Shown piece after piece: positions 2,614 to 63,945 of a DNA stretch of 64,000 nt. Position 1 is the first letter of the stretch. Every line of letters begins with the position of its first letter. The DNA lies in the NCBI GenBank assembly GCA_963655255.1, contig CAVKEB010000007.1, positions 13,026 to 77,025 on the forward strand, in the 5' to 3' direction. The notes beneath the pieces are model-generated. The model worked only from the letters and a program-made list of their open reading frames with translations, did not search any database and was not told the origin of the DNA. Source of the stretch: a bacterium (GTDB taxonomy: Bacteria > Bacillota > Clostridia > Lachnospirales > Lachnospiraceae). The position numbers were made by a program, and so were the translations under genes.

Positions 2614-2641
2614 GATTTTGCCTCAGCGAGGTATAAACATG
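2614..2641 (+). repeat. Modular palindromic repeat family, copy a (terminal module only)
   Basis: GATTTTGCCTCAGCGAGGTATAAACATG matches the SD-bearing end of the other copies; antisense to the EPS operon. Confidence 0.75.
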
Positions 2642-2673
2642 AATTCTCCGCAGTGGCCGGTTTGTCTGCCTTC

Positions 2674-3486
2674 TCATTTCTTATGATAGATTCGGTTCTT
2701 CACCCAATCATAGCACGCCGCCGTGCGCGGAGAAGACGCCAGCTTCTCCCGAACCGGCTGCAGGCTCAGAATCATCGCCGTGCGGAACAGCCGCACTTCT
2801 TTTTTCGTAAAATACCGCTCCGCGATTTCCCGGTGCTCTCTTGCGGACAGCTCACGGCTTTCCCTCGTCTCGGAGAAGCCTCCGCCCTCGTAATCCGCAA
2901 CGATCCGGTTCATTGCCACCGCCTTTGCACCATGCCGGATCACACACCACAGAAAGTGCTCATAGTCGGCCCGCACGCAATAGCGAAGATCAAAGGCTCT
3001 CGTCTCAAACAGATCTCTGGAATAGAAGCACGCCTGATGGCAGGGAAGATTCCGGTACATGGCAAAATGCGTCATCTCCGGCTTGGCCGCAGCGCGCTGC
3101 CCGGTCTTCTCTTCCAGGACATCTCCATAGAAAATCCGGCCGTCGGATACGTCCTGCTCTTCGGCCTTTCGGATGTCTTCTGCTGTCTTCTCCAGTACAT
3201 CCGGTGCATGCAGCGTATCGCCGCAGTTCAGGAAATACAGATACTCTCCTTTTGCCGCGGCGATCGCCTGGTTCATGCCGTCATAGATTCCGCTGTCCTT
3301 CTCCTGAATGAGACGGATTCTTCTATCCCGGGGCAGGGCCTCAATACTTCCGTCCCTGGAGCCCGCATCCTTCACAATGACCTCGTAATCCGAAAAGGTT
3401 TGTGTCAGGATGCTCTCCATGGTTTTCCGAAGCCGCGGTCCCGCATGAAAGCTTGGCGTGATAATACTGAAAAATGGCGTGTTCAT
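2674..3486 (-). CDS. GT2 family glycosyltransferase (WcaE-like)
   Basis: FSIITPS...DAGSRDGS...DSGIYDGMNQ...FLNCGD GT-A motifs. Confidence 0.88.
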   Translation of the reverse strand: MNTPFFSIITPSFHAGPRLRKTMESILTQTFSDYEVIVKDAGSRDGSIEALPRDRRIRLIQEKDSGIYDGMNQAIAAAKGEYLYFLNCGDTLHAPDVLEKTAEDIRKAEEQDVSDGRIFYGDVLEEKTGQRAAAKPEMTHFAMYRNLPCHQACFYSRDLFETRAFDLRYCVRADYEHFLWCVIRHGAKAVAMNRIVADYEGGGFSETRESRELSAREHREIAERYFTKKEVRLFRTAMILSLQPVREKLASSPRTAACYDWVKNRIYHKK

Positions 3487-3519
3487 TGCATTCTCCGAAC
3501 AGAAAACAGTACATTCCTT

Positions 3520-4719
3520 TTAATAGCCACTTCCTCCGACGCTGGCAGACGGCGTTCGGTTCAAATCGTGAAACAGAAAGCTCTTATAAGGAAGAATTTT
3601 GATCGTGTCACGGTAAGCGGTCCGGAGAAACAGCGCGAAAAACAGCATCACCGCCAGAATCACCAGCACGGTCAGAAGTTTTTTCTCCTTCCGTCCTCTT
3701 CCCTCTTCCGGAATGCGGCTCAGCAGCATCGGAAGATAGAAGATCTGCGTGAAAGTCAGATAATAGCAGATGCGCGAGATCTCCGGGATGAACCAGCCGA
3801 ACACATAGAGAAGGAGTCCGAAATACGTGCTGTTCCAATACAGCGTAAGCTCTCTTTCCCGAAACGCCGTTTCCCGTCCGGCCGCGGGCTGTATCCTGCC
3901 TGTCTCTTCCTGCTGCAGCCCCTTCTCCGCTTCCATGCGTCTTTGCACCGGCAGTGCCAGAAGAAGCACCGCGGCGCAGCGCGCGATGTTGACCCAGGAG
4001 ACACTGGTCCCTGCTGCCAGGTCCACGGTTCCCTCCCAGGAGGGATACAGCTCCAGAAGAAAGTTCAGTGCCTTCTCATGAAAAAGAAGCACCGCCATGC
4101 CAAGAGCCGCACCCGCCGCCAGTTCCCTTTTTCTCCACCTGTGCATGGCGAGCGGATACAGAACAATCGTCACCAGTGCCGACTTGTGAAACAGGGAAGC
4201 CAGAAGAACCAGGGCGGCAAAACCCGCGTAATTTCTCTTCAGGAGGCAGGTCATCGCCGCCAGTGCAAGAGAGAGCGCGAAGTAATACCGCATGGTATTG
4301 AAGCTCTGGTAATAATACCCGAACATCATGAACAGGAAGAAGGAGAAGCAGAAGTTCTCCGCCTGCTTCCGGATGACCGCCAGCATCAGAAGAATGGTCA
4401 GAACCGCGTAAACTGCAAAAATCAGCAGGTAATTCTCATATCCACAGATCCCGTAGAGGAGCTTTGCCAGCCAGTTGAATCCCGCCTCCGTCGGCACATA
4501 GGCATCAATCGACGCGAGATGGAAGAATTCCACATACCGCAGGTAATCGTTGCCGGTTTCCTGCCGAAGAACCGCGGGAAGAATCAGGATCAGCGCAATC
4601 AGGCCGAGGCAGGTTTTCTGCAGAAGCATGCCGCGGCTTCCCCTTCCCATCCCTTCCGTTTTATTCACAACAGCGGCAGCCGCCACCGCAGCTGCCGCGA
4701 TCAGCAGGTAAAGCACCAT
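3520..4719 (-). CDS. EpsG-family polysaccharide polymerase (Wzy-like)
   Basis: Polytopic membrane protein with LRxxTGNDY and ASLFHKSA motifs, inside the glycosyltransferase cluster. Confidence 0.8.
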   Translation of the reverse strand: MVLYLLIAAAAVAAAAVVNKTEGMGRGSRGMLLQKTCLGLIALILILPAVLRQETGNDYLRYVEFFHLASIDAYVPTEAGFNWLAKLLYGICGYENYLLIFAVYAVLTILLMLAVIRKQAENFCFSFFLFMMFGYYYQSFNTMRYYFALSLALAAMTCLLKRNYAGFAALVLLASLFHKSALVTIVLYPLAMHRWRKRELAAGAALGMAVLLFHEKALNFLLELYPSWEGTVDLAAGTSVSWVNIARCAAVLLLALPVQRRMEAEKGLQQEETGRIQPAAGRETAFRERELTLYWNSTYFGLLLYVFGWFIPEISRICYYLTFTQIFYLPMLLSRIPEEGRGRKEKKLLTVLVILAVMLFFALFLRTAYRDTIKILPYKSFLFHDLNRTPSASVGGSGY

Positions 4720-4720
4720 C

Positions 4721-6662: not shown

Positions 6663-8158
6663 GAAACTCCCCCGCCCGGCGTTTCCCGCGCTGCTGCAGA
6701 AGCAGACTCCTTCGGCGCTTCCGTCCTCTCCGCATCTGCAGAGGATTCCGAAACCGGCTGCGTCTTCTCCGCGGGGTTCTCCTGCATCGCCGTTACCTGT
6801 CCGTCCGCTACTCCTTCCGTTGCCTCCGGCGTAAAGACAATCTTCAGTGTCAGGAGCATCAGCTTTAGATCCAGGCCAAGCGAATAATTCTGAATATACG
6901 TAAGATCCAGCTTCAGCTTGTCATAAGGCGTCGTGTTGTATTTGCCGTAGACCTGCGCGTACCCGGCAAGTCCTGCCTTGACCTTCATGCGGTAGGCAAA
7001 CTCCGGCATTTCTTCCATATACTGGGCAATGATCTCCGGCCGTTCGGGTCTGGGACCGATGAACGACATCTCGCCCTTCAGAATGTTGATCAGCTGCGGA
7101 AGCTCATCAATCCGCGTCTTGCGGATGAAATGTCCCACCGGCGTGATGCGGTCGTCATGCTCCGAGGCAAGGCGGGCCACACCGTCCTTTTCCGCATCCA
7201 CCTTCATGCTGCGGAACTTGATGATCCTGAACTCTTTCTGATTCAATGTGCAGCGCACCTGCTTGTAAAATACGGGGCCATGATCATACAGCCGGATCAA
7301 AATCGCCGTAATGAGGAAAAACGGTGACGTCAGAACCAGAAGAATCAGCGCGCAGACAATGTCTACCGCCCGCTTGCAGAACCTCTCTCCGAAGGTCAGT
7401 GCATATTCCTTCGTCAGATAAATCGGCGTATCGAACAGATGGAGCTGCGTCGATCCCTTGACCAGAACATCCGGAATCTTCGGCATCATGTACTGCCGCA
7501 CGCCGTTCGCGTAGCAGAACTTCATCAGCTCATTCCGGTCCATGGTAGGAATATCCCACAGAACGACCGCCATTCCGCCGGATTCCAGAATTTCCTGTTT
7601 GATTTTCTCCACGCCTTCGGAAATGCAGACCGTTCTGGTGACATCGTACTTTTCCGGCCGGCTCGCGAACTTCTGCAGAATCGACTCTGCATTCCGCTCG
7701 CCGTAAACCAGAAGGAGCTTCGTCGGCGGGAAGACCTTGTGATAAACCCGGTCGGAAATCCGGATCCACAGCACCGCAAATCCGATCTGAACCAGCGTCG
7801 CCAGAAGAGCCCATCCGATCGGCAGCAGCCAGTTGCGCAGCAGTGAATCCTGCAGATACGTGAAGGCATTGACGATCAGAAGCGAGAAAATCTGCGACAG
7901 GCTGACGTCAAACGGTTTCTGATATCCCACATCCATGCCGCCATAGGTTTTCGTCAGGAACAGGAGCAGCACGAAATATAAAAGAAGCACCAGAATGTGC
8001 CCGTTCAGCCAGAATTTCAGCCGCAGCCGCACCAGCGGATAGTAGATGGAAAACCACAGCCACGCGTAAATCAGCGTCTGAATCAGAATGCCGGCAAGCG
8101 GCATTTCCAGCGCGGCAATGCGCCGCACGGATTGTCGTCGGTTTGTAGTCTGCTTCAT
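6659..8158 (-). CDS. Priming undecaprenyl-phosphate glycosyl-1-phosphate transferase (CpsE/WcaJ family)
   Basis: KFRSM, DDRIT, IDELPQLINILKGEMSFIGPRPE motifs; N-terminal TM helices. Confidence 0.93.
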   Translation of the reverse strand: MKQTTNRRQSVRRIAALEMPLAGILIQTLIYAWLWFSIYYPLVRLRLKFWLNGHILVLLLYFVLLLFLTKTYGGMDVGYQKPFDVSLSQIFSLLIVNAFTYLQDSLLRNWLLPIGWALLATLVQIGFAVLWIRISDRVYHKVFPPTKLLLVYGERNAESILQKFASRPEKYDVTRTVCISEGVEKIKQEILESGGMAVVLWDIPTMDRNELMKFCYANGVRQYMMPKIPDVLVKGSTQLHLFDTPIYLTKEYALTFGERFCKRAVDIVCALILLVLTSPFFLITAILIRLYDHGPVFYKQVRCTLNQKEFRIIKFRSMKVDAEKDGVARLASEHDDRITPVGHFIRKTRIDELPQLINILKGEMSFIGPRPERPEIIAQYMEEMPEFAYRMKVKAGLAGYAQVYGKYNTTPYDKLKLDLTYIQNYSLGLDLKLMLLTLKIVFTPEATEGVADGQVTAMQENPAEKTQPVSESSADAERTEAPKESASAAARETPGGGVS

Positions 8159-9090
8159 CAGTCAAGCTCTTCCTTTGTGATGTAAATCGGGCGGTTCTTC
8201 ACTTCCAGATAGGTTTTGGACAGATACTGGCCGATCACGCCGAGGCACAGCAGCTGAATGCCGCTCACCATCAGAATGATGCAGACCATGCTCGGCCACC
8301 CGCTCGTGGGATCTCCCATCAGAAGCTTCCGGATAATGACAAATACAATCATCAGGAACGCAATGACACAGAACAGAACACCGACAAACGCCGCCATGGC
8401 AAGCGGCACCGTCGAATATGCCACGATTCCGTCCATCGCATAGACAAAAAGCTTCCAGAAGGACCACTTGGTCTCTCCGTATCTGCGTTCCACGTTCTCG
8501 AACTCAATCCAGCGGGTCCGAAAACCCACCCACTCAAAGATGCCCTTTGAGAAGCGGTTGTATTCCTTCACCGAGAGAATTGCGTCCACCACGCAGCGCT
8601 TCATCAGGCGGAAATCTCTCGCACCGTCCACAATTTCCGTCTTCGAGAACTTATTGATCAGCTTATAGAACTGCCTCGCGAAGAAGGAACGGATCGGCGG
8701 TTCTCCCTTTCTCGTCACTCTTCTCGTCGCGGCCTGATCATAGCCGTCCCAGAGATAGCCGAACATTTCCGGAAGGAGCGACGGCGGATCCTGAAGGTCC
8801 GCATCCATCACGGCCACGTAGTCGCCCTTTGCGTGCTCGAGCCCCGCATACATGGCGGCTTCCTTTCCGAAGTTGCGGGAAAAGGAGATCAGATGAACTC
8901 TTCCATCCTTCTGCCGGAGCTCCTTCACCTTCTCCACCGTCCTGTCCTTCGAGCCGTCATCTACATACAGCAGCTCGAATTCCAGATCATGCTCCCGGAA
9001 AAAGGGCTCATTCTTCATGAATTCCTGATAGAAATAATCGATATTTTCCTCTTCGTTGTAACAAGGAACAATTGCTGAAAATAAGCTCAT
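8158..9090 (-). CDS. GT2 polyprenol-phosphate glycosyltransferase (GtrB/YkcC-like)
   Basis: IVPCYNEE, FSRNFGKEAA, DADLQDPP and two C-terminal TMs. Start placed at ATG 9090; the ORF-track extension to 9189 is repeat sequence. Confidence 0.9.
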   Translation of the reverse strand: MSLFSAIVPCYNEEENIDYFYQEFMKNEPFFREHDLEFELLYVDDGSKDRTVEKVKELRQKDGRVHLISFSRNFGKEAAMYAGLEHAKGDYVAVMDADLQDPPSLLPEMFGYLWDGYDQAATRRVTRKGEPPIRSFFARQFYKLINKFSKTEIVDGARDFRLMKRCVVDAILSVKEYNRFSKGIFEWVGFRTRWIEFENVERRYGETKWSFWKLFVYAMDGIVAYSTVPLAMAAFVGVLFCVIAFLMIVFVIIRKLLMGDPTSGWPSMVCIILMVSGIQLLCLGVIGQYLSKTYLEVKNRPIYITKEELD

Positions 9091-9092
9091 TT

Positions 9093-9208
9093 TTATACCC
9101 CGCTGAGGCAAAATCCGCGAAGGCGGTTTTGCCGAATGCGGCAGCACCGATGCTGCAGTTTGAAAGTGACATATCAATGTCACTTTCAAACTTATCCCTC
9201 GCTGAGGC
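9093..9208 (-). repeat. Modular palindromic repeat family, copy b
   Basis: CGCTGAGGC at both ends (99-bp period). Hairpins: GGCAAAATCCGC-GAAG-GCGGTTTTGCC, GCAGCA-CCGA-TGCTGC, and the perfect 16-bp AGTTTGAAAGTGACAT-ATCA-ATGTCACTTTCAAACT (9157-9192). Confidence 0.95.
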
Positions 9209-9226
9209 TTTTACCAAGCCATTTCG

Positions 9227-11442: not shown

Positions 11443-11871
11443 AGAGGAATGGTCCTTTTCTCATCTGTTGTCAATCAATGTAGTTTTTAAAACTACATAT
11501 CAAGCATACTCTCCGTACAGCCCCCCGTCAATCAGAATACAGCGGCCAATTATAAAAATTCTGTAACATTTGGTGCCTCTGTTCTTTCGAAGGTTCGCCT
11601 GAAATCTGTCCACATCCCCAGTCATCGTACCGTACTATGTCCGATCAAAAACTCCTGAAACCATCTGCTGAAATCATTTGAATCCAGCAGGTGCCGAACC
11701 GCTGCAAATAGTGTAAACTGGAGCAGACGTCGTTCTCTCGCAGTTCCGCGGCGGAAGGCGGCATTTACCTTATAAATTTACCGATATTAACATGATAATG
11801 ATTCCGCACATCCCGAATATCCTTGCGGAATCGGGATGTGCCAGACGGTTGCAAAATGTCACGGATCACCG

Positions 11872-12023
11872 GCAGCCGCATTCGGCAAAACCGTTACATT
11901 CGAAGACGTCTGATGACATCTTCTCCTGCTTAGAGTGCCGCTTGGCGGCACTCTGTATACAGAGAGAATTCGCCTTCGCGAAATTCTCTCTGATATCGCG
12001 GATTTTGCCTCAGCGAGGAATTA
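11872..12023 (+). repeat. Modular palindromic repeat family, copy c (long multibranch form)
   Basis: Three nested hairpins (GAAGACGTC/GACATCTTC, AGAGTGCCGC/GCGGCACTCT, AGAGAGAATT/AATTCTCTCT) inside GGCAAAA...TTTTGCC; ends in CCTCAGCGAGG just before the methyltransferase ATG. Confidence 0.95.
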
Positions 12024-31774: not shown

Positions 31775-32701
31775 TCCGTATTTGTCCACAGGAGACGTTT
31801 ACAGAACACATGTTTGTCAATATCTGACATCTTACGCTTCGAATCCAATTTTGACAAGATCTGGAGCCCATCTTTGTCCATATCTGGTACCTTTTATATC
31901 GTTTTTATGCCTCGCTGAGGCAAAATCCGTGCTATCAGAGAGAAGATGTCATCAGACATCTTCGAGTGCAGCGGTTTTGCCGAATGCGGCAGCCGGTGCT
32001 TCAGCACCGATGCTGCTGTTTGAAAGCGACATATCAATGTCACTTTCAAACGCGCCCCTTTTCAGTCCGTATCTGTCCACTTCTGATGCAGCTGTGGACA
32101 ATCCCGGATTTATTTCGATGGGTGGACAAATATGGATTCATTTTCATGCGGGGAGCGTGCTTATCCCTGCTCCTGTCCGTACTGACAAATACTCTCGGGG
32201 AAATATTCGTGCTGAACAATCCTTGGGAGAGCATCTGCCCTCCGTTTCCCGATATTTTCCGGCACTTCTTCTCCAATCATTCATCGGAAAATCCATGATC
32301 GTTCCGCAGAAAGTCCGTATCTGTCCACACCTGCCTTTTAGCTATGGACAACTTCGGATTTATGCAAAGAGCAGTCCCTCCGTTTCCCGGTATTTTCTGG
32401 TACTTCTTCTCCGATTATTCATCGAGAAATTCATGATCATTCATCAAAGAATTCCATATCTGTCCACATCTGCATTCCAGCTATGGACAATTCCAGATTT
32501 ATTTGGAAGATTGGACGGCTGCGGATAAAACTACCTGTGGACAAATACGGATTCCGGATCTGTCCCCCGCTGCATCCGTCTCTGTCCGTATCCGGTTCCA
32601 TTTTTGTCCACCTCTGGGATCCGCTGCCCGCTGTTCCTGCGTCCGTCTTCGTCCATTTCTGAATCCGGTTTTGTCCTCTGCACCGCCCGTTTTTGTCCAT
32701 A
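31775..32701. repeat. Iteron-like repeat field (consensus TCCRTATYTGTCCAYA) upstream of rep
   Basis: Forward copies at about 31775, 32066, 32314, 32453, 32553, 32575, 32597, 32664, 32686; reverse copies at about 32093, 32122, 32343, 32482, 32536. Confidence 0.8.
31905..32051 (-). repeat. Modular palindromic repeat family, copy d
   Basis: TTATGCCTCGCTGAGGCAAAATCC...GAAGATGTC/GACATCTTC...TTTTGCCGAATGCGGCAGC...TTTGAAAGCGACATATCAATGTCACTTTCAAAC, sitting inside the iteron field. Confidence 0.95.
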
Positions 32702-37706: not shown

Positions 37707-37752
37707 AATACCTCGCTGAGGCAGCCGGTGCGGCAGCAACGATGCTGCAGTT
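37707..37752 (-). repeat. Modular palindromic repeat family, copy e (internally deleted)
   Basis: ATACCTCGCTGAGGCAGCCGGTGCGGCAGCAACGATGCTGCAGTT; the central stem is missing between two GGCA microhomologies. Confidence 0.85.
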
Positions 37753-37880: not shown

Positions 37881-37998
37881 AAGTTTGAAAGCGACATCGA
37901 TATGTCACTTTCAAGCAGCAGCATCGGTGCTGACGCACCGGCTGCCACATTCGGCAAAACCGGCTTCGCGGTTTTTGCCTCAGTGAGGAAAGTTTGAA
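37881..37998 (+). repeat. Modular palindromic repeat family, copy f
   Basis: AGTTTGAAAGCGACATCGATATGTCACTTTCAAG...TTCGGCAAAACC...TTTTGCCTCAGTGAGG, followed by the start of another unit (AGTTTGAA). Confidence 0.92.
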
Positions 37999-46446: not shown

Positions 46447-46598
46447 TTATACCTCGCTGAGGCAAAATCCGCTCTATCAGAGAGAATTTCGCGAAGGCGA
46501 ATTCTCTCTGTATACAGAGTGCCGCTAAGCGGCACTCTAAGCAGGAGAAGATGTCATCAGACATCTTCGAGTGCAGCGATTTTGCCGAATGCGGCAGC
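46447..46598 (-). repeat. Modular palindromic repeat family, copy g (long multibranch form)
   Basis: Near-identical reverse complement of copy c, with the three nested hairpins. Confidence 0.95.
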
Positions 46599-51876: not shown

Positions 51877-51973
51877 TGCCGCATTCGGCAAAACCACGGC
51901 ACTCTTTATACAGAGAGGATTCGTCTTCGCGAAACTGATATCGCATATTTTTCCTCAACGATGTATCAATATG
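51877..51973 (+). repeat. Modular palindromic repeat family, copy h (degenerate)
   Basis: TGCCGCATTCGGCAAAACC...GGCACTCTTTATACAGAGAGGATTCGTCTTCGCGAAA...TTTTCCTCAACGATGTATCAATATG. Confidence 0.8.
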
Positions 51974-54309: not shown

Positions 54310-54352
54310 GCAAATTGTTCTTCTCCGTGTCTTTCACAGACGGTACGCAGGA

Positions 54353-55160: not shown

Positions 55161-55202
55161 CTGAAATCTTCTTATTCCCATGCATAGCCGTATTCACAGA
55201 TA

Positions 55203-56695: not shown

Positions 56696-56697
56696 TG

Positions 56698-56820
56698 TTA
56701 TACCTCGCTGAGGCAAAAATCTCTGTATACAGAGATTCTGCCGAATGCGGCAGCCGGTGCGGCAGCACCGATGCTGCAGTTTGAAAGCGACATATCAATG
56801 TCACTTTCAAACTTGTACCT
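56698..56820 (-). repeat. Modular palindromic repeat family, copy i
   Basis: TTATACCTCGCTGAGGCAAA, perfect palindrome AATCTCTGTATACAGAGATT, then the GCAGC and TTTGAAAG...CTTTCAAAC hairpins. Confidence 0.95.
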
Positions 56821-57035: not shown

Positions 57036-57079
57036 AAAAGGACGTGCCCAAGGGGTTTTCTTCCCCTCGGACACGTCCC
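57036..57079 (-). terminator. Intrinsic terminator of the epimerase gene
   Basis: GGACGTG-CC-AGGGG...CCCCT-GG-CACGTCC stem plus a T-tract on the minus strand. Confidence 0.7.
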
Positions 57080-57091
57080 TGTGAAGTAAGC

Positions 57092-58351
57092 TTACCTTTC
57101 GGCCCTGCGATTATCTTTTACGGCTTTTGCGATGGAAAGATCCGCCGCATAAAGCGGGATCAGAGTCGCCTGCGTGGCATGATACAGATCCGATTTTCCC
57201 GGCCATACCGTATCCAGCACGCGGTTGCTGCGGTCCAGCTGATGGAACCATGAACCGTGTACGTGGTCCATGACCTTCTCATCCAGATACTTCATGAACC
57301 AGCTGTAATAATCCGCGTAGAGTTCCTTGCCGGTCACCTGATAGAGCGATGCGGAGGTATTGATGGCCTCCGCCAGCGTCCAGTGCATCCTGTCATGAAC
57401 CACCGGTCTGCCGTTCCAGTCCGTGGTATAGACAATTCCTGGTGCACCGTCACTGTCCCAGGCATCCAGTGCGGCGCGGTTGAACAGCTCCTCCGCCGCG
57501 GAAAGATACGGTGCTGCCTGTTCGGATACGGCTCCGTTCTCTTCTCCCGGATAAGTGGACAGTGCCCACTGGGTAATCAGTCTCGCCCACTCGATGCCGT
57601 GTCCCGGAGTTGCTCCGTACGGCTTGAACTGATCGTCCGGCTTGTCCTTGTTGCAGTCAAGATCCGCCACCCAGTCACTGCTGTAATGCTCCGGTATTCT
57701 CCAGTTGTTCGCGGATGCCCAGCCGATCACGTGATCAATGATCCTGCCTGCGCGAACCCGGTATTCCTCTTCGCCCGCGGCATCCGCCACGGCCAGAAAC
57801 GCTTCCACGGTATGCATGTTCGCGTTCAGTCCGCGGTACGGATCCAGCTCGGTGAACTCCGTATTCCAGGTATCCACGGAAAGTCCCAGGTCTTCCTTCC
57901 AGAAATACTTGTCATAGACGGCCTTCGCCTTCTCAAAAAGCTCCTCTGCGGCCGGTCTTCCCGCCAGCATTCCGCTTGTCGCTGCCAGAATCACAAAGGC
58001 ATGTGCGTAGCACTGCTTCGGTCCGAGCGGCTGTCCGTCTGCGGTCACCGCCGCATACCAGCCGTCATGCTCCTTGTCGTGCAGCTCTCCGAGAAGTCCC
58101 TTCAGGCCCGCATCTGCCAGTGCCTCGCTTCCCGGATGTCCCAGAAGCGTCCCCAGACTGTACACGTGCACCATCCGTGCCGTAATCCAGGTCTCACGGT
58201 TTCTCTCCTTCCACGGAGTACCGTCGTCCCCCAGCCAGTAGGAGCCGCCCTCCGGCGACGGAAATTCATGTCCGAACGCAAGAAGATTGTCCCTTGCTCC
58301 CTGCAGAAATGCCTTGTTCTCGTCCGTTCCGATCCGATACTTTCGATCCAT
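57092..58351 (-). CDS. AGE-family sugar epimerase/isomerase (YihS/mannose-isomerase-like)
   Basis: ITARMVH, YAHAFV, NANMHTVEAF, TPGHGIEW, DLYHA; start MDRKY at 58351. Confidence 0.88.
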   Translation of the reverse strand: MDRKYRIGTDENKAFLQGARDNLLAFGHEFPSPEGGSYWLGDDGTPWKERNRETWITARMVHVYSLGTLLGHPGSEALADAGLKGLLGELHDKEHDGWYAAVTADGQPLGPKQCYAHAFVILAATSGMLAGRPAAEELFEKAKAVYDKYFWKEDLGLSVDTWNTEFTELDPYRGLNANMHTVEAFLAVADAAGEEEYRVRAGRIIDHVIGWASANNWRIPEHYSSDWVADLDCNKDKPDDQFKPYGATPGHGIEWARLITQWALSTYPGEENGAVSEQAAPYLSAAEELFNRAALDAWDSDGAPGIVYTTDWNGRPVVHDRMHWTLAEAINTSASLYQVTGKELYADYYSWFMKYLDEKVMDHVHGSWFHQLDRSNRVLDTVWPGKSDLYHATQATLIPLYAADLSIAKAVKDNRRAER

Positions 58352-58394
58352 AGCTTCCTTTCCTGCCGCAGCCCGTCTGCAGCAACACGCAAAA

Positions 58395-58417
58395 GATTTC
58401 GCGAAGACGAATTCTCT
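58395..58417 (-). repeat. Modular palindromic repeat family, copy j (single hairpin remnant)
   Basis: GATTTCGCGAAGACGAATTCTCT matches the AATTTCGCGAAGGCGAATTCTCT module. Confidence 0.55.
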
Positions 58418-58779
58418 GATGTGCAGGCCGGTCACCACGCCGTGTCCGCCCTTTCTGCGTCCCCTCGCATTGCACCGCCTTGATATTCTTATTGTGTCAC
58501 ATCTGTCCTGCCTTTTCTATTCTTTTTCTTATTTAGTTTTATTTAATATCGCAGTCTTTTCGTTCTCTTTTCCGGCCAGAAGAAGCTTCTCCTCTGCTTT
58601 CTGTCCAGTAGTGCATGAATATTAAGTTTTTATGCGCTTAATTTAATTTATTTGTTTCTTTCACGCAGGAGGTACCGCTCCTCCGGATTGGTGTCCGGCC
58701 ATCCGTTTTACTCTTTTTCACCGTTCCTTCTGCGCAGAGCATACGGCAGCACAGCCGGATCCGGTTCTTCCCTTTTTCC

Positions 58780-60117
58780 CTACTCTGCTCCTTCCGCGTA
58801 TGAGATACAGTTATCCTGGAAGGTCTGCAGGGCGGCCATCAGATCGGCATCACTGGTTTTCGTGTTCAGCGTCTTCGTGTTGACATCATCCCCCAGCCCC
58901 GTTGCCAGGGTCCAGTAATCTCCTGGATACTGTCCCTGCGGCCTGTCGATCAGCATCTGTTCATTCAGGGCACACAGTGCTGCATCCGCCCGGACCTCCT
59001 CCGACTGCTGAGCCTTCCGGTTGGACGGCCCCCAGCCGATTGCCTTGTAGCGGGCAAGCTGAACCTCTTCCCCGGAAAGGTATGCCGCGAGCGCGTGGCA
59101 GACCTTTTCCTTCTCCTCATCCTCCTGCGGCTTCACGCCAATGAGCCGGTACCCGGAAAATCCGGACATCTGATACGTGTTCCCATCCGATCCCTGGAAC
59201 GAGGGAAGCTTTGCGCAGGCGTAATGGTCTCCCAGTGCCTCCCGGATGATTTCCGCATCCCAGGTTCCGTCCACAATGACGCCGATGTCCTCCGCATCTC
59301 CCGCCGCGGACCCGTTTACAAAGGAAGAAGAGCTCTTCAGGCGGATCATTTCCCGGAGTGCCGTCAGTCCCTTGCCGGAAGCGTAGTTCACCTCCGCTCC
59401 GGTGAAATTCCCGGCGTTGTCGGTCTCATAGGAGAGCTCGCACCCGGTCCCGAAAAAGAAGGCCGTCTGATACCAGCCGGAATTGATCTCCATATAGAAA
59501 TTCTTCCCCGCCTTCTCACAGTCATCGAGGATTGCATCCAGATCGGAAGGATCCGTGACCACGCTCTTGTCATAGTACATCAGATATCCGTTGTCAGAGG
59601 TCAGCGGGTAAGCATACAGCGTCGTCCCGACAGCTGCCGCCAGAACCGATCCCTCGTCATTGTCTGCCTGCACTGTCTCTGCGTACGCCGGCGCAGCCTC
59701 CGCAAGCGTCCCCGCTGCGGCGAGGCGTGCGAGCTGATCCTGCGCGAAGACGTAAACATCCGCGCCATCCCCATCACCTGCAGACATCCGGTCCGCCGCA
59801 TCGCTTTCACTGACTGCCTCTACGGTAAAAACGGTATTGGCAATCCCCGGATTCGCCTTCTGGAATTTCTCAATCTGCTCCATCGTGAAATTCACTGCAC
59901 TGTCCGCAGTCCACACCCGGATCTCTCCGTCATAACCAAGCTTTCCTTTCGCCGTCTCTTCTGACGACGCGGCGTCCTCCGCAGAGTCTCCTGCGGTTTC
60001 CGTCTCTTCTCCGGTATCTCCATCCCCGGCTGCGGGTGCCTTGGAAGTTCCGCATCCCGCAAGCACTGCAGATGCCAAAACACCCGCAATGAATATCGAA
60101 GCCATCCTTTTCTTCAT
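58780..60117 (-). CDS. Orphan sugar-binding lipoprotein (maltodextrin/cellodextrin-binding family)
   Basis: LAGC lipobox, ADVYVFAQDQ, YAYPLTSDNGYLMYYDKS; no adjacent permeases. Confidence 0.85.
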   Translation of the reverse strand: MKKRMASIFIAGVLASAVLAGCGTSKAPAAGDGDTGEETETAGDSAEDAASSEETAKGKLGYDGEIRVWTADSAVNFTMEQIEKFQKANPGIANTVFTVEAVSESDAADRMSAGDGDGADVYVFAQDQLARLAAAGTLAEAAPAYAETVQADNDEGSVLAAAVGTTLYAYPLTSDNGYLMYYDKSVVTDPSDLDAILDDCEKAGKNFYMEINSGWYQTAFFFGTGCELSYETDNAGNFTGAEVNYASGKGLTALREMIRLKSSSSFVNGSAAGDAEDIGVIVDGTWDAEIIREALGDHYACAKLPSFQGSDGNTYQMSGFSGYRLIGVKPQEDEEKEKVCHALAAYLSGEEVQLARYKAIGWGPSNRKAQQSEEVRADAALCALNEQMLIDRPQGQYPGDYWTLATGLGDDVNTKTLNTKTSDADLMAALQTFQDNCISYAEGAE

Positions 60118-60305
60118 ACTGTTCCTCCGAAATAATGCCGTCTTCTCCGACTCGTTCTGTTCTCTCCCCGGCTAAGCCGCCTGAGGTTTTCCCGCTTTTC
60201 GTTCGATATCAAAGCCGCAGACAGTGTAACATAAAATACAGAATCCGGTATCCGGTGCAGCCGACCGTTTTCATTTCAAAGGCGGCAGTTCTCAGAAGAT
60301 TCCGG

Positions 60306-60334
60306 TTGAGCGAGAACATATGTTCTGTTAGAAT
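60306..60334 (+). promoter_or_regulatory. SOS promoter with a Firmicute LexA box
   Basis: TTGAGC-17 nt-TAGAAT with the perfect palindrome AGAACATATGTTCT (60313-60326) in the spacer. Confidence 0.85.
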
Positions 60335-60454
60335 ACAAGAGAACTTGTTTGAATTCCCCACGGCAGGAACATCGTCTGCTCACTCCCTTTCCGGTCTGAT
60401 AGATTACAGGAGCCGCGGGAATGGAGGGAACGCACGGTTCCCGGAAAGCTGTCT

Positions 60455-61975
60455 ATGTCCTCCCGTACTTACATTGCCATTGATTTAAAATCTTTCTATG
60501 CCTCCGTGGAATGCATGGAGCACCGGCGCGATCCTCTGACCACGCACCTTGTCGTGGCAGATCCTTCCCGCACCGAGAAGACCATCTGCCTTGCGGTCTC
60601 ACCTTCTCTGAAGGCCTACGGTCTTCCCGGCCGCGTGCGCCTGTTCGAGGTTGTACAGAAGGTGCGCGAAATCAACGCCCAAAGGCTCCTGCATGCCCCC
60701 GGCCACCGCTTCCTCGGAAGCTCCGACGATGCAGACCTTCTTGCAAGAGATCCTTCTCTTTCTCTTTCCTATATCATCGCTCCGCCGCAGATGGCTCATT
60801 ACATGCAGATCAGCACGAAGATTTACCAGATCTACCTGCGCTACATCGCACCGGAGGATATCCACGTCTATTCCATTGATGAGGTCTTTCTGGATGCCAC
60901 CGCGTATCTTCGCACGTATCATCTTTCCGCGCGTGACCTTGCAGGGAAGATGATTCTGGATGTCCTGCGTGAGACCGGCATCACGGCAACCGCCGGCATC
61001 GGAACCAACCTGTATCTCGCCAAGGTGGCAATGGATGTAGAGGCAAAACACATCGCCCCGGATGAAAACGGCGTCCGCATCGCCGAGCTGGATGAGCTTT
61101 CCTACCGACGGAGTCTCTGGTCCCACCGTCCTCTCACGGATTTCTGGAGAGTGGGCCGCGGCTATGCGCGAAGGCTCGAAGAGGCCGGGCTTCACACGAT
61201 GGGAGACATCGCGCGCTGCTCGCTCGGCGGTCCTTCCGATTTCTATAATGAAGAACTTCTATACCGCATGTTCGGTGTCAATGCCGAACTTCTGATCGAC
61301 CATGCCTGGGGCTGGGAGCCCTGCACCATGGCAGATATCAAGGCGTACCACCCCGCCTCCCACAGCAGCGGATCCGGTCAGGTTCTCTCCTGTCCGTACC
61401 CCTCCGACAAGGCCCGGCTTATCGTTCGGGAAATGGCGGATCAGCTAGCCCTTGATCTTGCTGCACGTCACCAGGTCACGGACCAGATCGTTCTGACGGT
61501 CGGCTATGACGTCTCCTCGCTTACGGATCCGTCCATCCGGAAATCCTACCACGGGCCTGTCACCTCCGACCGCTACGGCAAACCTGTTCCGAAACCGGCC
61601 CACGGGACGGAACATCTGTCCTCCCTGACATCCTCCTCCCGCCGGATCCTGGATGCGGCGACGACTCTCTATGACAGGATCATCAATCCCTCTCTCCTGA
61701 TCCGCCGGCTGTATCTCACCGCAGGATCCGTGGTCCCGGAGAGTGCTGCTTCCGGTCCGGTCTTTCAGCAGATGGATCTTTTCACGGACTATGCCGCCAA
61801 AGAGGCTCGTGAAAAGGAAGTGAAGGAAATGGAGAAACGCGACCGGAGAATCCAGGACGCTCTGCTGTCCATCAAAGAGAAATACGGGAAAAATGCCGTC
61901 CTTCGCGGCATGAATCTCGAAGAGGGCGCCACCGCGCGAGAACGCAACGAACAGATCGGAGGACACAAGGCATGA
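60455..61975 (+). CDS. Y-family DNA polymerase (UmuC/ImpB/UvrX-like)
   Basis: IDLKSFYASVEC, YSIDEVF, GIGTNLYLAK, QMDLF clamp-binding motif. Confidence 0.93.
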   Translation: MSSRTYIAIDLKSFYASVECMEHRRDPLTTHLVVADPSRTEKTICLAVSPSLKAYGLPGRVRLFEVVQKVREINAQRLLHAPGHRFLGSSDDADLLARDPSLSLSYIIAPPQMAHYMQISTKIYQIYLRYIAPEDIHVYSIDEVFLDATAYLRTYHLSARDLAGKMILDVLRETGITATAGIGTNLYLAKVAMDVEAKHIAPDENGVRIAELDELSYRRSLWSHRPLTDFWRVGRGYARRLEEAGLHTMGDIARCSLGGPSDFYNEELLYRMFGVNAELLIDHAWGWEPCTMADIKAYHPASHSSGSGQVLSCPYPSDKARLIVREMADQLALDLAARHQVTDQIVLTVGYDVSSLTDPSIRKSYHGPVTSDRYGKPVPKPAHGTEHLSSLTSSSRRILDAATTLYDRIINPSLLIRRLYLTAGSVVPESAASGPVFQQMDLFTDYAAKEAREKEVKEMEKRDRRIQDALLSIKEKYGKNAVLRGMNLEEGATARERNEQIGGHKA

Positions 61976-62038
61976 ACACCAGCATGTTCTGCGCGGGCAG
62001 CCTGATCACGCCGGCTCCCCGGACAAGAGGATTTGTTT

Positions 62039-62470
62039 ATGAGCACTGATTCCTATGAGGATATCCTTCACCTTCCGCACCATGTATCGCATACGCATCC
62101 ACCCATGCCGAGGCAGGACCGCGCCGCACAGTTTGCTCCCTTTGCCGCGCTCTCCGGCTACGAGGACGCCATCCGTGAGGCCGCAAGACGCACGGTTCCC
62201 CGCATGGACCTGGAGGAAGACGAGAAAGAGGAACTGGACCGGACGTTCTCCCTTCTTGCCTCCCAGGTCCGGGCACGCGGCTTCTCACAGACCGTGCAGG
62301 TCACATTTTTCCTCCCGGACCAACGGAAAACCGGAGGAAACTATCTCGTCTCCTCCGGTATTGTCCGTAAAATTCATATGGATTCCCGCATTCTGGATCT
62401 GGAAGAGGCAGGCGGTACCGTCCGCACCATTCCTCTTGCCGACATCTGTCAGCTCGAACTCCTGTCGTGA
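62039..62470 (+). CDS. YolD-like protein
   Basis: YEDILHLPHHVS..HPPM..DRAAQFAPFAALSGY; directly follows the Y polymerase. Confidence 0.82.
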   Translation: MSTDSYEDILHLPHHVSHTHPPMPRQDRAAQFAPFAALSGYEDAIREAARRTVPRMDLEEDEKEELDRTFSLLASQVRARGFSQTVQVTFFLPDQRKTGGNYLVSSGIVRKIHMDSRILDLEEAGGTVRTIPLADICQLELLS

Positions 62471-62480
62471 GCTTCGTTCT

Positions 62481-63680
62481 TCATTCGATCTCCGAGTTTA
62501 CGATATTGCGGATTTCTCTCGTCAGCCGGTCCGTTCCGTGGTCCTTCTTGTTCATCATCAGGAGGAGTGTCTGTCCGGCCTCCGGATCATTATCGAAGTA
62601 CACGCCGAGCCAGCCGTCCCAGCCGTACTCTCCCTTGTGTCCGATGGTCACCGCCTGCGAAGGGTCCACCATGACACGGTTCAGATTGGCATAGGAATGT
62701 CCCGCAAGGCCGGACCAGGTGTCAAATCTTGCCTGCTGTCTTGCGTTCAGCCTTTCTGAGGACAGGAAGCGGACCGTTCCTGGCCGCAGGACCTGTCTGC
62801 CGCTCTCTGCCTTTCCATGGTTCATGAGCATGCCGGTGAATTTCCGGTAGTCATCCAGGGTCGAGAACAGTCCCGCTCCGCCGGATTCAAACGGATTCTC
62901 ACCGCCGTTGTTGCGGATTGCCAGGTGATTGCCTGTGTACGGAACAAGCTCCGCACCGGGCTCATCATTCCGGTTCCCGTATGCCGTAACGAGCCGGCTC
63001 TTCTTCTCTTCCGGGACATAGAAGGCTGTGTCCGTCATCCCTGCCGGATCCAGAATGCTCTCTTTCAGATATTCCCCGAAGGTCATGCCGGTGATCTTCT
63101 CGATTACGGCACCCAGAATATCCGCCGACACGCCATAGTTCCAGCTCGTTCCCGGTGCGAACAGAAGAGTGCACTCTCCGATTCTCTCCGCGAATTCCAT
63201 CGTTGTCATGGCATGGTCGGTTCCAAGACGAGCGATCGCGTCATCATAGATCACACCGGTTTCTCTCCCGGGCCTTGTCACCTCATCCGGATAAACGAGG
63301 CCTGACGTCATGTTCAGCAGATCACGGACCCGCATCGGGTTGTCCGCCGGTACCGGACGAAGCTGTCCGCCTTCTGTCATATAGTTTTGTCTGCGGTAGC
63401 TCTCCAGATACCGTGAAACCGGATCCTGCAGATCCACATAGCCATCCTCGACGAGTTTCAGAAAAGCGGCCGCCGTCACAGGCTTGGACATGGAATACAT
63501 GCGGTAAATGCTGTCCCGCGAAATCTTTTTCCCCTTTTCCTTATCGGCATAGCCGCTCTCCAGATAGAACTGTTCCTCTCCGTCACGCACCAGGCAGAAC
63601 GTGCATCCTGCCATTTCATTTCCGGCAACGGCGCGGTCCATGCATTTCTGCAGAACTTCCTTGATTTCTGTCACTGACAT
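62481..63680 (-). CDS. Serine hydrolase, beta-lactamase/family VIII esterase fold
   Basis: SMSK SxxK motif, LLNMTSG, WNYG, WDGWLG. Start at ATG 63680; the extension to 63872 is repeat sequence. Confidence 0.9.
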   Translation of the reverse strand: MSVTEIKEVLQKCMDRAVAGNEMAGCTFCLVRDGEEQFYLESGYADKEKGKKISRDSIYRMYSMSKPVTAAAFLKLVEDGYVDLQDPVSRYLESYRRQNYMTEGGQLRPVPADNPMRVRDLLNMTSGLVYPDEVTRPGRETGVIYDDAIARLGTDHAMTTMEFAERIGECTLLFAPGTSWNYGVSADILGAVIEKITGMTFGEYLKESILDPAGMTDTAFYVPEEKKSRLVTAYGNRNDEPGAELVPYTGNHLAIRNNGGENPFESGGAGLFSTLDDYRKFTGMLMNHGKAESGRQVLRPGTVRFLSSERLNARQQARFDTWSGLAGHSYANLNRVMVDPSQAVTIGHKGEYGWDGWLGVYFDNDPEAGQTLLLMMNKKDHGTDRLTREIRNIVNSEIE

Positions 63681-63682
63681 TC

Positions 63683-63945
63683 TTATACCTCCCTGAGGCA
63701 AAATCCGCGAAGGCGGTTTTGCCGAATGTGGCAGCCGGTGCATCAGCACCGATGCTGCAGTTTGAAAGCGACATATCGATGTCACTTTCAAACTTATCCC
63801 TCCCTGAAGCAAAATCCGAGATACCAGAGAGAATTTCTCGAAGGCGGATTCTCTCTGTATACAGAGTGCCACTTAGCGGTACTCTAAGCAAGAGAAGATG
63901 TCATCCGGCATCTTCAAATGCAGCGGTTTTGCCGAATGTGGCCGC
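63683..63945 (-). repeat. Modular palindromic repeat family, copy k (head-to-tail short + long unit)
   Basis: A 111-bp short unit (like copy b) followed directly by TTATCCCTCCCTGAAGCAAAATCCG and the long multibranch unit (like copies c and g). Confidence 0.95.

What the first reader, a model, noticed from the sequence alone, without database searches (positions are those of the whole stretch)
2614..63945. Dispersed modular hairpin element that supplies the ribosome-binding site of unrelated genes at a fixed +18 spacing
Seen: 11 intergenic loci (2614, 9093, 11872, 31905, 37707, 37881, 46447, 51877, 56698, 58395, 63683) share modules, most ending in GATTTTGCCTCAGCGAGGTATAA. Counting from the first C of CCTCAG, the likely start codon is at exactly +18 for five unrelated genes: GtrB-like GT (ATG 9090), YesM kinase (TTG 37703), MoxR ATPase (ATG 46444), HTH protein (GTG 56695) and serine hydrolase (ATG 63680). 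For the RlmI-like gene it is at +16/+19. The element's GAGG/GGGG/GGAGG is the only SD-like sequence at these starts. Even the two copies with no real gene downstream (2614, 51877) have ATG at +18, and copy d has ACG there. No transposase is visible in the window. Inference: a non-autonomous mobile element (REP/BOX/MITE-like) that targets, or is selectively retained at, translation starts and replaces the native RBS, placing a structured RNA leader on many genes. I do not recognise it as a named family.
Basis: partly seen in the sequence, partly recalled or inferred. Interest (0 to 1): 0.9.

Follow-up and report, generated by a model that had tools for sequence, protein, structure and literature searches.

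The report
Hairpin repeat that supplies ribosome-binding sites
A short, hairpin-rich repeated DNA element has landed just in front of the start codon of well over a hundred unrelated genes in this gut/rumen-type bacterium and brings its own ribosome-binding site, so about one gene in twenty starts translation from the same borrowed sequence.

Summary
The 3' module T (GATTTTGCCTCAGCGAGGTATAA) occurs 252 times in the 2.8 Mb genome. In 107 copies a long ORF starts exactly 18 nt after the first C of CCTCAG (3.5 expected); 146 start within 16-21 nt. T ends a collinear modular repeat, A-B-b-C-D-E-F-T, mostly hairpins, with at least 349 loci. The commonest form, ABbCT, is a uniform 111 nt.

Sister species carry empty sites. 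The unit sits without target duplication in the purine-rich spacer between a gene's own Shine-Dalgarno (SD) sequence and its unchanged start codon, usually 2-4 nt before it. The native SD is displaced upstream and T supplies GAGG at a 7-nt spacing.

The SD core is intact in 142 of 146 start-linked copies against 69 of 87 others. Copies away from genes also lie after SD-like tracts and are enriched for ATG at +18, which argues for site preference, not only selection.

No Rfam, plasmid or phage match was found. No transposase tracks the element, so how it spreads is unresolved. The closest known idea is the Neisseria REP2 repeat; the architecture resembles BIME/BOX. I call it a new variant of a known kind.

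The parts
2614..2636 (+). Solo T module, antisense to both flanking genes. ATG at +18 (2639-2641) opens only 15 codons.
   Evidence: G011 lacks it; G053 has a diverged sequence at the same place.
9093..9208 (-). Composite: partial T (9192-9208), hairpin A (9158-9191), B, C, short F tip, then T (9093-9115). It fills the spacer between a galactokinase-like gene (stop 9227-9229) and a GT2 gene (ATG 9090-9092).
   Evidence: G068 has a 24-nt spacer with its own SD and the same start codon; G011 has a shorter form of the element. RNA fold -57 kcal/mol, z -5.3.
11867..12023 (+). b-remnant, then C-D-E-F-T, in front of the RlmI-like methyltransferase. T is at 12001-12023 and the real start is ATG 12027 (+19).
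   Evidence: G053 and G011 keep only the b-like remnant plus GCGAGGAAAT. G068 has an unrelated native RBS.
31905..32051 (-). A-B-b-C-D-T copy with ACG at +18, about 34 nt upstream of a Rep3-type initiator gene.
37707..37750 (-). Short form: B, b and the 3' part of T. TTG at +18 (37701-37703) opens a 597-codon histidine kinase ORF.
   Evidence: The next in-frame ATG is 45 nt further downstream, so this start is the least certain of the five.
37881..37993 (+). A-B-b-C-T copy that faces the 3' end of a convergent gene, with no gene start after it.
46447..46598 (-). C-D-E-F-T copy. T is at 46447-46469, and ATG 46442-46444 starts an AAA_5 (MoxR-like) gene.
   Evidence: Fold -84.3 kcal/mol, z -8.0, with the SD left unpaired. 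G053 has only GAGAGGTATAACAA before the same ATG; G068 has a native GAAGGAGAGAG SD.
51877..51973 (+). Decayed copy: C, E/F fragments and a degenerate T. ATG at +18 (51971-51973) has no long ORF.
56698..56814 (-). A-B-b-C, short palindrome, then T. GTG 56693-56695 starts a 469-codon ORF.
   Evidence: There is a clean empty site in both G053 and G011: GAGAGGTACAG|AACAGTGAG.
58395..58421 (.). Isolated fragment of hairpin F.
   Evidence: Solo F loci and solo D loci are common genome-wide.
63683..63793 (-). 111-nt ABbCT unit. ATG 63678-63680 starts a beta-lactamase-family serine hydrolase.
63794..63945 (-). C-D-E-F-T unit abutting the previous one head to tail (tandem).
   Evidence: T followed directly by A occurs 19 times in the genome.

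Best explanation
It is a family of small non-coding repeats built from up to eight collinear modules, A-B-b-C-D-E-F-T, most of them hairpins. It has multiplied in a few species of one Lachnospiraceae genus.

A discrete unit has been inserted, without target duplication, into the purine-rich stretch between a gene's own SD and its start codon, typically 2-4 nt before the start. The commonest unit is 111 nt, 5'-AAGTTTGAAAG...GCCTCAGCGAGGTAT-3'.

The native SD is pushed 50-250 nt upstream. The 3' module T puts a new GAGG 7 nt before the same start codon. The gene is then translated from the element's SD, and its mRNA carries a very stable multi-hairpin domain directly 5' of that unpaired SD.

The element prefers SD-like purine tracts, which resemble its own 3' end. 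This explains both the tandem arrays and the fixed +18 spacing. It can be lost again by recombination between the two SD-like repeats that flank it, which leaves a TATAA-type spacer as a scar.

Shown here: the repeat family, the spacing, the empty sites, the displaced SD and the conservation of the SD core. Inferred: use of T as the working RBS, site preference rather than selection alone, and the loss route. Unknown: the enzyme or process that moves it.
For: Scale and spacing
- 252 T copies; 107 have a long ORF starting at exactly +18 (3.5 expected); 146 start-linked in all.
- The 146 downstream proteins are unrelated; the largest similarity cluster has 3 members.
- One module order across 349 loci. 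54 of 55 ABbCT copies are exactly 111 nt, with mean pairwise identity 0.92.

Empty sites
- In a 1.03 Mb sample of sister species G053 (about 93% DNA identity), 59 oriented G000 loci had both flanks located. 27 have 30 nt or less in place of the element, 22 have other sequence, and 10 are of similar length.
- Clean 110-113-nt insertions lie at C2:71165, C5:53421, C10:3349, C12:6201, C42:8644 and window 56698, and in the reverse direction at G053 C15:1088.
- The HTH-locus site is empty in both G053 and G011, so by parsimony it is a gain.
- Start codons are conserved and a native SD sits in the empty alleles.

Site preference
- The left flanks of 114 A-first elements are purine-rich at -9 to -4, with AA at -2 and -1.
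- An SD-like 4-mer is present in 39 of 51 start-linked and 22 of 43 non-start elements, against 16.8% of random non-ORF positions.
- ATG at +18 followed by 50 codons or fewer occurs in 18 of 89 non-start copies, against a 1.8% background.

Function
- The SD core is GAGG or GGGG in 142 of 146 start-linked copies against 69 of 87 others (Fisher p = 1e-5). The 5' part of T is similarly conserved in both groups.
- The TATAA spacer is not a native habit: 0 of 59 RAGG-N7-ATG starts in the nearly element-free G068 sample use it.
- Folds have z -5.3 and -8.0 and leave the SD unpaired.

Distribution
- T is present in 16 of 86 genomes of the genus, in very unequal numbers: 209, 109, 79, 42, then 13 or fewer. 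The close relative G068 has 5.
- It was found in none of 12 genomes of other families.
Against: - No transposase or recombinase is tied to it. The one IS200 tnpA in the genome has unrelated ends. Y1_Tnp is in 59 of 86 genomes of the genus but in none of G011 (109 copies), G057, G008, G066 or G085.
- It has no terminal inverted repeats and no target duplication.
- Many filled/empty pairs are replacements rather than clean insertions. The MoxR locus lost about 21 nt including a -10-like box, and 22 of 59 compared loci hold other sequence.
- At two G053-filled sites the empty G000 allele reads ATA where the filled one reads ATG. That fits recombination better than cut-and-paste.
- Some 'empty' alleles keep pieces of the element, so the direction of change is often unclear.
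- G-T versus A-C mismatches in the stems give no strand signal, 104 against 84, so RNA-level selection on the hairpins is not shown.
- No expression or translation data exist.
- Gene calls come from my own simple ORF scorer.
- The relatives are draft assemblies that break at these repeats; 20 of 131 start-linked loci touch a contig end.
Confidence: 0.6

Rival explanations
1. Spread by recombination rather than transposition. Because the unit is flanked by RBS-like sequence on both sides (a T-like tract before A, and T plus the start region after it), it may be copied into other ribosome-binding sites. The route would be short-homology recombination, single-strand annealing or template switching, in register with the start codon. 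No dedicated enzyme would be needed.
For: - No target duplication, no inverted ends and no linked transposase.
- The target resembles the element's own 3' end.
- The GAGG-to-start distance stays at 7 nt although the apparent junction moves within the spacer.
- Replacement-type events occur, and two sites differ ATA versus ATG.
- Sister species hold different module sets at the same locus (items 9, 30, 34).
- Half-T scars are flanked by 7-nt SD repeats (items 119 and 309).
Against: - Unit length is very uniform, 111 nt in 54 of 55 ABbCT copies. The 5' boundary at AAGTTTGAAAG is sharp, and several insertions are clean with 0-1 nt changed.
- The homologies available, 5-9 nt of degenerate purines, are very short for recombination to have produced well over a hundred events.
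- The patchy spread between species with a near-identical consensus looks like bursts of an active element.
Confidence: 0.22
2. Random insertion into intergenic DNA followed by selection. The element has no site preference; only copies that happen to restore a working RBS next to a start codon survive, and the rest are purged.
For: - The SD core is better kept in start-linked copies, so selection does act.
- An insertion between SD and start would be harmful without a replacement SD.
Against: - Insertions further upstream of a native RBS should be harmless and common, yet 146 of 233 non-internal T copies sit at +16 to +21.
- Copies away from genes still follow SD-like purine tracts (22 of 43 against 16.8%) and still show ATG at +18 (18 of 89 against 1.8%).
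- Tandem units abut exactly, with T followed by A in 19 cases.
Confidence: 0.1
3. Not mobile DNA at all, but a conserved cis-regulatory leader, such as a binding site for a protein or a riboswitch-like RNA, that marks a regulon and is inherited vertically.
For: - Stable, conserved hairpins next to the SD.
- In another species the inner stem of hairpin A is replaced by a different self-complementary sequence (L093, L094, L136).
Against: - Presence or absence differs at most loci between species about 93% identical.
- T was found in 16 of 86 genomes of the genus and in none of 12 outside the family.
- The downstream genes are unrelated in function.
- Copies also lie in gene-free and antisense contexts.
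- No Rfam family matches.
Confidence: 0.05

Closest known systems
Neisseria REP2 repeats, and the similar Borrelia plasmid inverted-repeat (IR) sequences
   Same: A dispersed intergenic repeat of about 120-150 bp with internal stem-loops and no terminal inverted repeats. It lies immediately upstream of ORFs and brings the ribosome-binding site and start region. Its mode of spread is unknown. Source: Delihas 2011, PMC3184786, passages and section 11 read.
   Different: - REP2 is described as also carrying a promoter and the ATG. Here a consensus scan of window 44001-64000 placed no promoter-like site inside the three sense-oriented copies in that stretch. Also 95 of 111 start-linked loci with a called upstream neighbour follow a co-directional gene, and the start codon is the gene's own.
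- REP2 has 23-26 copies and 14 linked genes. This family has 252 T copies and about 146 linked genes.
- This element is modular with optional hairpins.
- Sequence likeness to REP2 was not tested, because no REP2 sequence was at hand.
BIMEs (mosaics of REP palindromic units) of enterobacteria, and pneumococcal BOX elements (boxA-boxB(n)-boxC)
   Same: Mosaic, collinear combinations of short hairpin-forming modules, with optional modules, in intergenic DNA. They are co-transcribed with neighbouring genes and affect expression. For BOX I read passages of PMC3049150. The BIME architecture is recalled, with only a mention seen.
   Different: - As recalled, REP/BIME lie mostly 3' of genes and go with RAYT transposases; no RAYT-like gene tracks this element.
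- In the passages read, BOX-borne ORFs lacked good SD candidates. This element's defining feature is an SD at fixed spacing.
- No Rfam match.
IS200/IS605-derived palindrome-associated elements (PATEs)
   Same: No terminal inverted repeats, no target duplication, hairpins near the ends, and insertion next to a short preferred sequence. The family features are recalled, not taken from a call.
   Different: The only Y1 transposase in the genome is an ordinary IS200 with unrelated ends. G011 has 109 T copies and no Y1 gene. The preferred target is a loose purine tract, not a fixed tetra- or pentanucleotide.
Mycobacterial interspersed repetitive units (MIRUs)
   Same: Repeats that sit in the spacers between genes of an operon, oriented with the genes and tied to their stop and start codons (recalled, not read here). 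In this genome 51 of 131 start-linked loci begin within 60 nt of the end of the upstream co-directional ORF.
   Different: MIRUs are tandem minisatellite units thought to act through small overlapping ORFs. This element is a hairpin mosaic that supplies an SD. It was not tested against MIRU sequences.

Membership tests
MITE (miniature inverted-repeat transposable element) | Terminal inverted repeats | tested here: not met
   The ends are 5'-AAGTTTGAAAG and GCCTCAGCGAGGTAT-3', which are not complementary. The inverted repeats are internal hairpins.
MITE (miniature inverted-repeat transposable element) | Target-site duplication of fixed length | tested here: not met
   Clean filled/empty pairs show 0-1 nt of ambiguity and no duplication. 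The 7-nt SD repeats at two loci (items 119 and 309) involve the element's own SD.
MITE (miniature inverted-repeat transposable element) | A parent insertion sequence with the same ends in the genome or in relatives | tested here: not met
   No pair of modules in G000 encloses a transposase-like gene. There is no transposase among 44 window ORFs. The IS200 ends are unrelated. Only two transposase families were searched by profile.
REP/BIME with RAYT | A RAYT (Y1 HUH) gene associated with the repeats | tested here: not met
   PF01797 gives one IS200-type gene and one fragment in G000 and none in G011, which has 109 T copies.
REP/BIME with RAYT | Mosaic of palindromic units with linker motifs in a set order | tested here: met
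   Module order A-B-b-C-D-E-F-T, with optional modules, across 349 loci. This is a likeness of architecture only.
Neisseria REP2-type repeat | Carries a ribosome-binding site directly upstream of ORFs | tested here: met
   GAGG lies 7 nt before the start in 107 copies, and 146 copies are start-linked.
Neisseria REP2-type repeat | Carries a promoter | tested here: not met
   A consensus scan of window 44001-64000 puts no promoter-like site inside the three sense-oriented copies. Most copies follow a co-directional gene. A consensus scan is a weak test.
Neisseria REP2-type repeat | Carries the ATG itself | tested here: inconclusive
   In clean pairs the start codon and the 2-4 nt before it are native. 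However, ATG or ACG recurs at +18 away from genes, and two sites differ ATA versus ATG.
Neisseria REP2-type repeat | Sequence homology to REP2 | not tested
   No REP2 sequence was available from a tool. The hosts are different phyla, so homology is unlikely.
IS200/IS605-derived PATE | Ends matching a resident IS200/IS605 element, with a Y1 transposase present | tested here: not met
Any Rfam RNA family | Match at the gathering score | tested here: not met
   The only hit in the 64 kb window is a tRNA.

The most novel reading that the evidence does not exclude
A mobile element that homes to ribosome-binding sites. It would recognise the SD-like purine tract, and its register to the start codon, at the DNA level because that tract mimics its own 3' end. 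It inserts 2-4 nt before the start codon and pays for the damage by carrying a replacement SD.

It would do this without any known transposase family, possibly through a host replication or repair route. The result is that 5-7% of the genes in a genome share one translation-initiation cassette with a common structured leader, which could act as a single handle for translational control or mRNA stability.
Probability: 0.3. Interest if true: 0.9.

Novelty: new variant of a known kind. Interest (0 to 1): 0.72.

Why it matters
Insertions next to genes usually damage expression. This element appears to have solved that problem by bringing a working SD at the right spacing, which lets it occupy a niche that is closed to most mobile DNA.

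It rewrites the translation start region of roughly one gene in twenty in one species, while close relatives keep their native sites. That is a natural experiment on how far RBS context can be swapped.

There are practical consequences:
- The gene's reading frame stays open through most copies (44 of 55 ABbCT), with in-frame TTG and GTG codons, so gene callers that prefer long ORFs may place starts inside the element.
- Assemblies break at these repeats.
- The unit looks like a natural insulated RBS cassette for Lachnospiraceae, a group with few genetic parts.

The mode of spread is open, as it is for Neisseria REP2. Here there are hundreds of copies and many filled/empty pairs to work with.

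Tried and rejected
- RNA evidence: the look-up of sequencing runs listed no RNA holder for window 6700-13300, so nothing could be laid on the locus.
- Y1 (IS200/RAYT) link: rejected.
- Y2/IS91 link: PF04986 gave no hit in G000, G011, G053, G054 or G068. The control genomes did not ring either, so this says little.
- Autonomous copy: no pair of element loci within 3.5 kb in G000 encloses anything but ordinary-looking ORFs. The 146 downstream proteins contain no multi-copy family.
- Carriers: no match in plasmids or phages (distant blastn) or in viral contigs (exact T).
- Strand test for RNA-level selection: G-T against A-C mismatches in stems A, D, E and F came out 104 to 84, which is uninformative.
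- T's 3' half as native target sequence: I first suspected this from the RlmI, MoxR and C58 loci. I rejected it as the general rule because the TATAA spacer is absent from 59 native starts in G068 and is brought in at the clean insertions. Those loci are better read as scars.
- A 2-nt AA target duplication: considered and not supported by the clean pairs.
- Comparison with G068 alone (about 80% identity) was too distant to define junctions; G053 and G011 were needed.
- Three literature searches found no description of this element. The library lacks most subscription journals, so this is not proof of absence.

Full report
**What is in the window.** The motif GATTTTGCCTCAGCGAGGTATAA (module T) has 8 matches with up to 3 mismatches in the 64 kb window, against none in 100 shuffles. 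Reading the 11 cited loci on the strand of the downstream gene shows one collinear set of modules:
- A, a 34-nt perfect hairpin, GTTTGAAAGTGACAT...ATGTCACTTTCAAAC.
- B and b, a GC-rich hairpin.
- C, CGCATTCGGCAAAAC, whose GGCAAAAC pairs with the GATTTTGCC of T.
- The optional inner hairpins D, E and F.
- T.

The six downstream proteins are unrelated: GT2, His_kinase, AAA_5, no family, Beta-lactamase family, and a PUA/SAM methyltransferase. For the RlmI-like gene, orthologues show that the second ATG (+19) is the start. Rfam gives only a tRNA in the window. None of the 44 window ORFs scanned is a transposase.

**Genome-wide.** The window is part of a 2.80 Mb draft of 92 contigs.
- T occurs 252 times with up to 4 mismatches: 39 exact, 88 with one mismatch, 61 with two, 42 with three and 22 with four. 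The reversed pattern occurs 0 times.
- The first start codon that opens at least 60 codons lies at offset 25 from the start of T (= +18) in 107 of 252 copies. It lies at offsets 23-27 in 143 copies. No other offset between 28 and 57 holds more than 6, and 64 copies have none within 60 nt.
- A random position has such a start with probability 0.014, giving 3.5 expected. For a 6-nt window the figure is 0.080, giving 20 expected.
- With my own ORF scorer (2052 open frames of at least 80 codons), 132 T copies sit 23-28 nt before a called gene, 36 at other offsets up to 60, 65 at none, and 19 are internal, meaning followed directly by module A.
- By ORF length alone, 146 copies are start-linked. 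That is about 7% of my 2052 called frames, and about 5% if the true gene count is nearer 2,600 (my estimate from genome size).
- The 146 proteins are unrelated; the largest similarity cluster has 3 members.

**Architecture.** Merging module hits gives 349 loci covering 30.8 kb. The modules always appear in the order A-B-b-C-D-E-F-T, with modules optionally missing. The commonest forms are ABbCT (55), solo T (38), CT (13), ABCT (11) and CDEFT (11), and there are tandem forms such as ABbCT-ABbCT.
- 54 of 55 ABbCT copies are exactly 111 nt, with 2-13 differences from the consensus and mean pairwise identity 0.92.
- As RNA, the 9093 copy folds at -57 kcal/mol (z -5.3). The 46447 copy folds at -84.3 kcal/mol (z -8.0) into an outer C:T stem that closes a three-hairpin junction. 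In both, GAGG and the start codon are left unpaired just 3' of the structure.
- G-T versus A-C mismatches in the stems, 104 against 84, do not show which strand is selected.
- In another species the inner stem of hairpin A is replaced by a different self-complementary sequence (L093, L094, L136).

**Where the copies sit.** Of the 131 start-linked loci:
- 51 begin within 60 nt of the end of the upstream co-directional ORF.
- 27 begin within 61-200 nt of it, and 17 further away.
- 16 have a divergent neighbour.
- 20 touch a contig end.

Most copies therefore lie inside operon-like arrays. A consensus scan of window 44001-64000 places no promoter-like site inside the three sense-oriented copies.

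**Relatives and distribution.** T, with up to 2 mismatches, is found in 16 of 86 genomes of the genus, in very unequal numbers: G000 209, G011 109, G053 79, G054 42, G057 13, G008 13, G007 10, and the rest 8 or fewer. The close relative G068 has 5.
- None of 12 genomes from other families of the order has it.
- Across one genome per prokaryote species, the exact 23-mer occurs only in records titled Lachnospiraceae or Lachnoclostridium: 53 stretches with 54 matches. Of those matches, 27 have ATG at +18.
- There is no match in plasmids, phages or viral contigs.

**Empty sites.** G068 (about 80% DNA identity) lacks the element at nearly all compared loci. It keeps the same start codon preceded by its own SD, but it is too distant to define junctions. 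G053 (about 93% identity) and G011 (about 87%) are close enough.

In a 1.03 Mb sample of G053, 77 G000 loci had both flanks located, and 59 of these could be oriented. Of the 59, 27 have 30 nt or less in place of the element, 22 have other sequence, and 10 are of similar length. In the reverse direction, 9 of 24 oriented G053 loci are absent from G000.

Clean cases, written empty then filled:
- GGAAGGAA|AGAAATG becomes ...[AAGTTTGAAAG...GGGAGGTAT]AGAAATG (C2:71165).
- GGCAGGAA|GAAAATG (C12:6201).
- GGAGAGGAA|ACGGATG (C10:3349).
- CAGGTGA|GAAAATG (C20:6509).
- GAGAAGGAT|AAAAATA (G053 C15:1088, empty in G000).
- A site with no gene after it, GAAGAAAAG|AAAAAAG (C5:53421).

The window's own HTH locus is empty in both G053 and G011, GAGAGGTACAG|AACAGTGAG, so by parsimony it is a gain in the G000 line.

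In these pairs the insert begins at (A)AGTTTGAAAG and ends at GAGGTAT. There is no target duplication. The start codon and the 2-4 nt before it are native, and the native SD stays on the 5' side of the insert. The element contributes GAGG plus about 3 nt and the gene about 4 nt. That gives the 7-nt spacing, which is the +18 rule.

**Site preference or selection?** The left flanks of 114 A-first elements are purine-rich at -9 to -4 and have A at -2 in 106 of 114 and at -1 in 94 of 114.
- An SD-like 4-mer lies at -14 to -3 in 39 of 51 start-linked elements. It also lies there in 22 of 43 elements with no gene start behind them, against 16.8% of 5000 random non-ORF positions.
- Among 101 T copies not at a called start, 30 have ATG at +18. 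Twelve of these open at least 75 codons, so they are genes my caller missed or offset. The other 18 open 50 codons or fewer. That makes 18 of 89, against a background ATG frequency of 1.8%. A further 11 have ACG.
- T followed directly by A occurs 19 times, so T's own end is a target.

These results favour a preference for RBS-like DNA over selection alone.

Selection also acts. The SD core is GAGG or GGGG in 142 of 146 start-linked copies against 69 of 87 others (Fisher p = 1e-5). The first 13 nt of T carry 0.42 and 0.57 mismatches per copy in the two groups.

**Loss and scars.** Some 'empty' alleles keep the 3' part of T.
- G053 has GAGAGGTATAACAA before the MoxR start where G000 has the whole CDEFT copy.
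- G053 and G011 keep a b-like remnant plus GCGAGGAAAT at the RlmI locus.
- At two loci the missing segment is bounded by 7-nt SD repeats, AGGGAGG and AGCAAGG (items 119 and 309).
- The TATAA spacer is not a native habit. It occurs in 0 of 59 RAGG-N7-ATG starts in the G068 sample, and in 9 of 329 non-T starts in G000, with TATCA in another 9.

I read these alleles as deletions between the displaced native SD and T's SD, which leave the element's spacer behind. Sister species can also hold different module sets at one locus (items 9, 30, 34), so the modules turn over in place.

**How it moves is not settled.** The one Y1 transposase in G000 is an ordinary IS200 with unrelated ends. Y1 genes are present in 59 of 86 genomes but absent from G011, which has 109 T copies, and from four other carriers. 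A Y2 profile found nothing, but its controls were silent too. No pair of element loci encloses a candidate gene.

Several features keep short-homology recombination or template switching between RBS regions as a serious rival: the lack of inverted ends and of duplication, the replacement-type events (22 of 59 loci), and two sites where the empty allele reads ATA and the filled one ATG.

**Comparison with what is known.** A review (Delihas 2011, PMC3184786; passages and section 11 read) describes Neisseria REP2. These are 120-150 bp repeats with two stem-loops and no inverted ends. They carry a promoter, an RBS and an ATG, number 23-26 copies, sit directly upstream of 14 co-regulated genes, and spread by an unknown route. 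Borrelia plasmid repeats are described as similar. That is the nearest concept.

The element here differs in five ways:
- Its scale is far larger.
- It has a modular hairpin architecture, which resembles BIME and pneumococcal BOX (PMC3049150, passages).
- It lacks a detectable promoter.
- It uses the gene's own start codon.
- Filled/empty pairs are available that show where it lands.

It fails the defining tests for a MITE, for REP/RAYT and for an IS200-derived element. Three full-text searches found no description of it. The library lacks most subscription journals.

**Verdict.** I file it as a new variant of a known kind: RBS-bearing dispersed repeats. The most interesting open point is an apparent homing to the SD-to-start spacer with no recognisable transposase.

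Noticed in passing
window 30414-31871 (-), with tRNA at 30059-30132 (-) and low G+C at 24001-28000: A Rep3-type plasmid replication initiator gene (Rep3_N and Rep3_C) lies next to a tRNA gene. Repeated GTGGACA/TGTCCAC words lie around 31790-32130. Nearby is a stretch of 41.6% G+C in a genome region of about 53%. This looks like an integrated plasmid-like segment or island.
   Followed up: no
window 13280-13459: A second, unrelated repeat of about 180 nt lies just after the RlmI-like gene. Besides its own locus, 6 further full or partial matches of 36-180 nt lie on 6 other G000 contigs (C6, C55, C66, C19, C23, C24), and there are many hits on different contigs of G011 and G053.
   Followed up: partly
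all start-linked copies, e.g. window 8161-9189, 45530-46609, 62484-63872: The gene's reading frame stays open through the element in most copies (44 of 55 ABbCT, 10 of 11 ABCT, 12 of 13 CT), with in-frame TTG and GTG codons. Longest-ORF rules therefore extend the genes by 7-64 codons into the repeat.
   Followed up: partly
G000 contig ends (e.g. C5:3-104, C6:3-81, C9:7-101, C18:29-51, C30:34-56): 20 of 131 start-linked loci touch a contig end, and G053 contigs also end in the element. The repeat breaks short-read assemblies, so copy numbers are lower bounds.
   Followed up: no
G000 C47:2446-2868: A single intact IS200-type tnpA. A long hairpin (GCCTCCACTGTAT / ATACAGTGGAGGC) spans its own GGAGG just before the ATG. 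A Y1 fragment lies at C3:114148-114237.
   Followed up: partly
G000 genome-wide; window 58395-58421: Hairpins D (29 loci) and F (17 loci) also occur alone, away from any T or C module. Single modules may therefore move or survive independently.
   Followed up: no
L093, L094, L136 (records of another species): A variant of hairpin A keeps the outer stem GTTTGAAAG...CTTTC but has a wholly different, still self-complementary inner stem (TCCTGC...GCAGGA).
   Followed up: no
window 46600-46640 compared with G053 (alignment A2): At the MoxR locus G053 has a TGTATAAT (-10-like) box about 20 nt before its SD. That box is missing in G000, where the element sits, so in G000 the gene may depend on read-through from the upstream CstA-like gene.
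   Followed up: no
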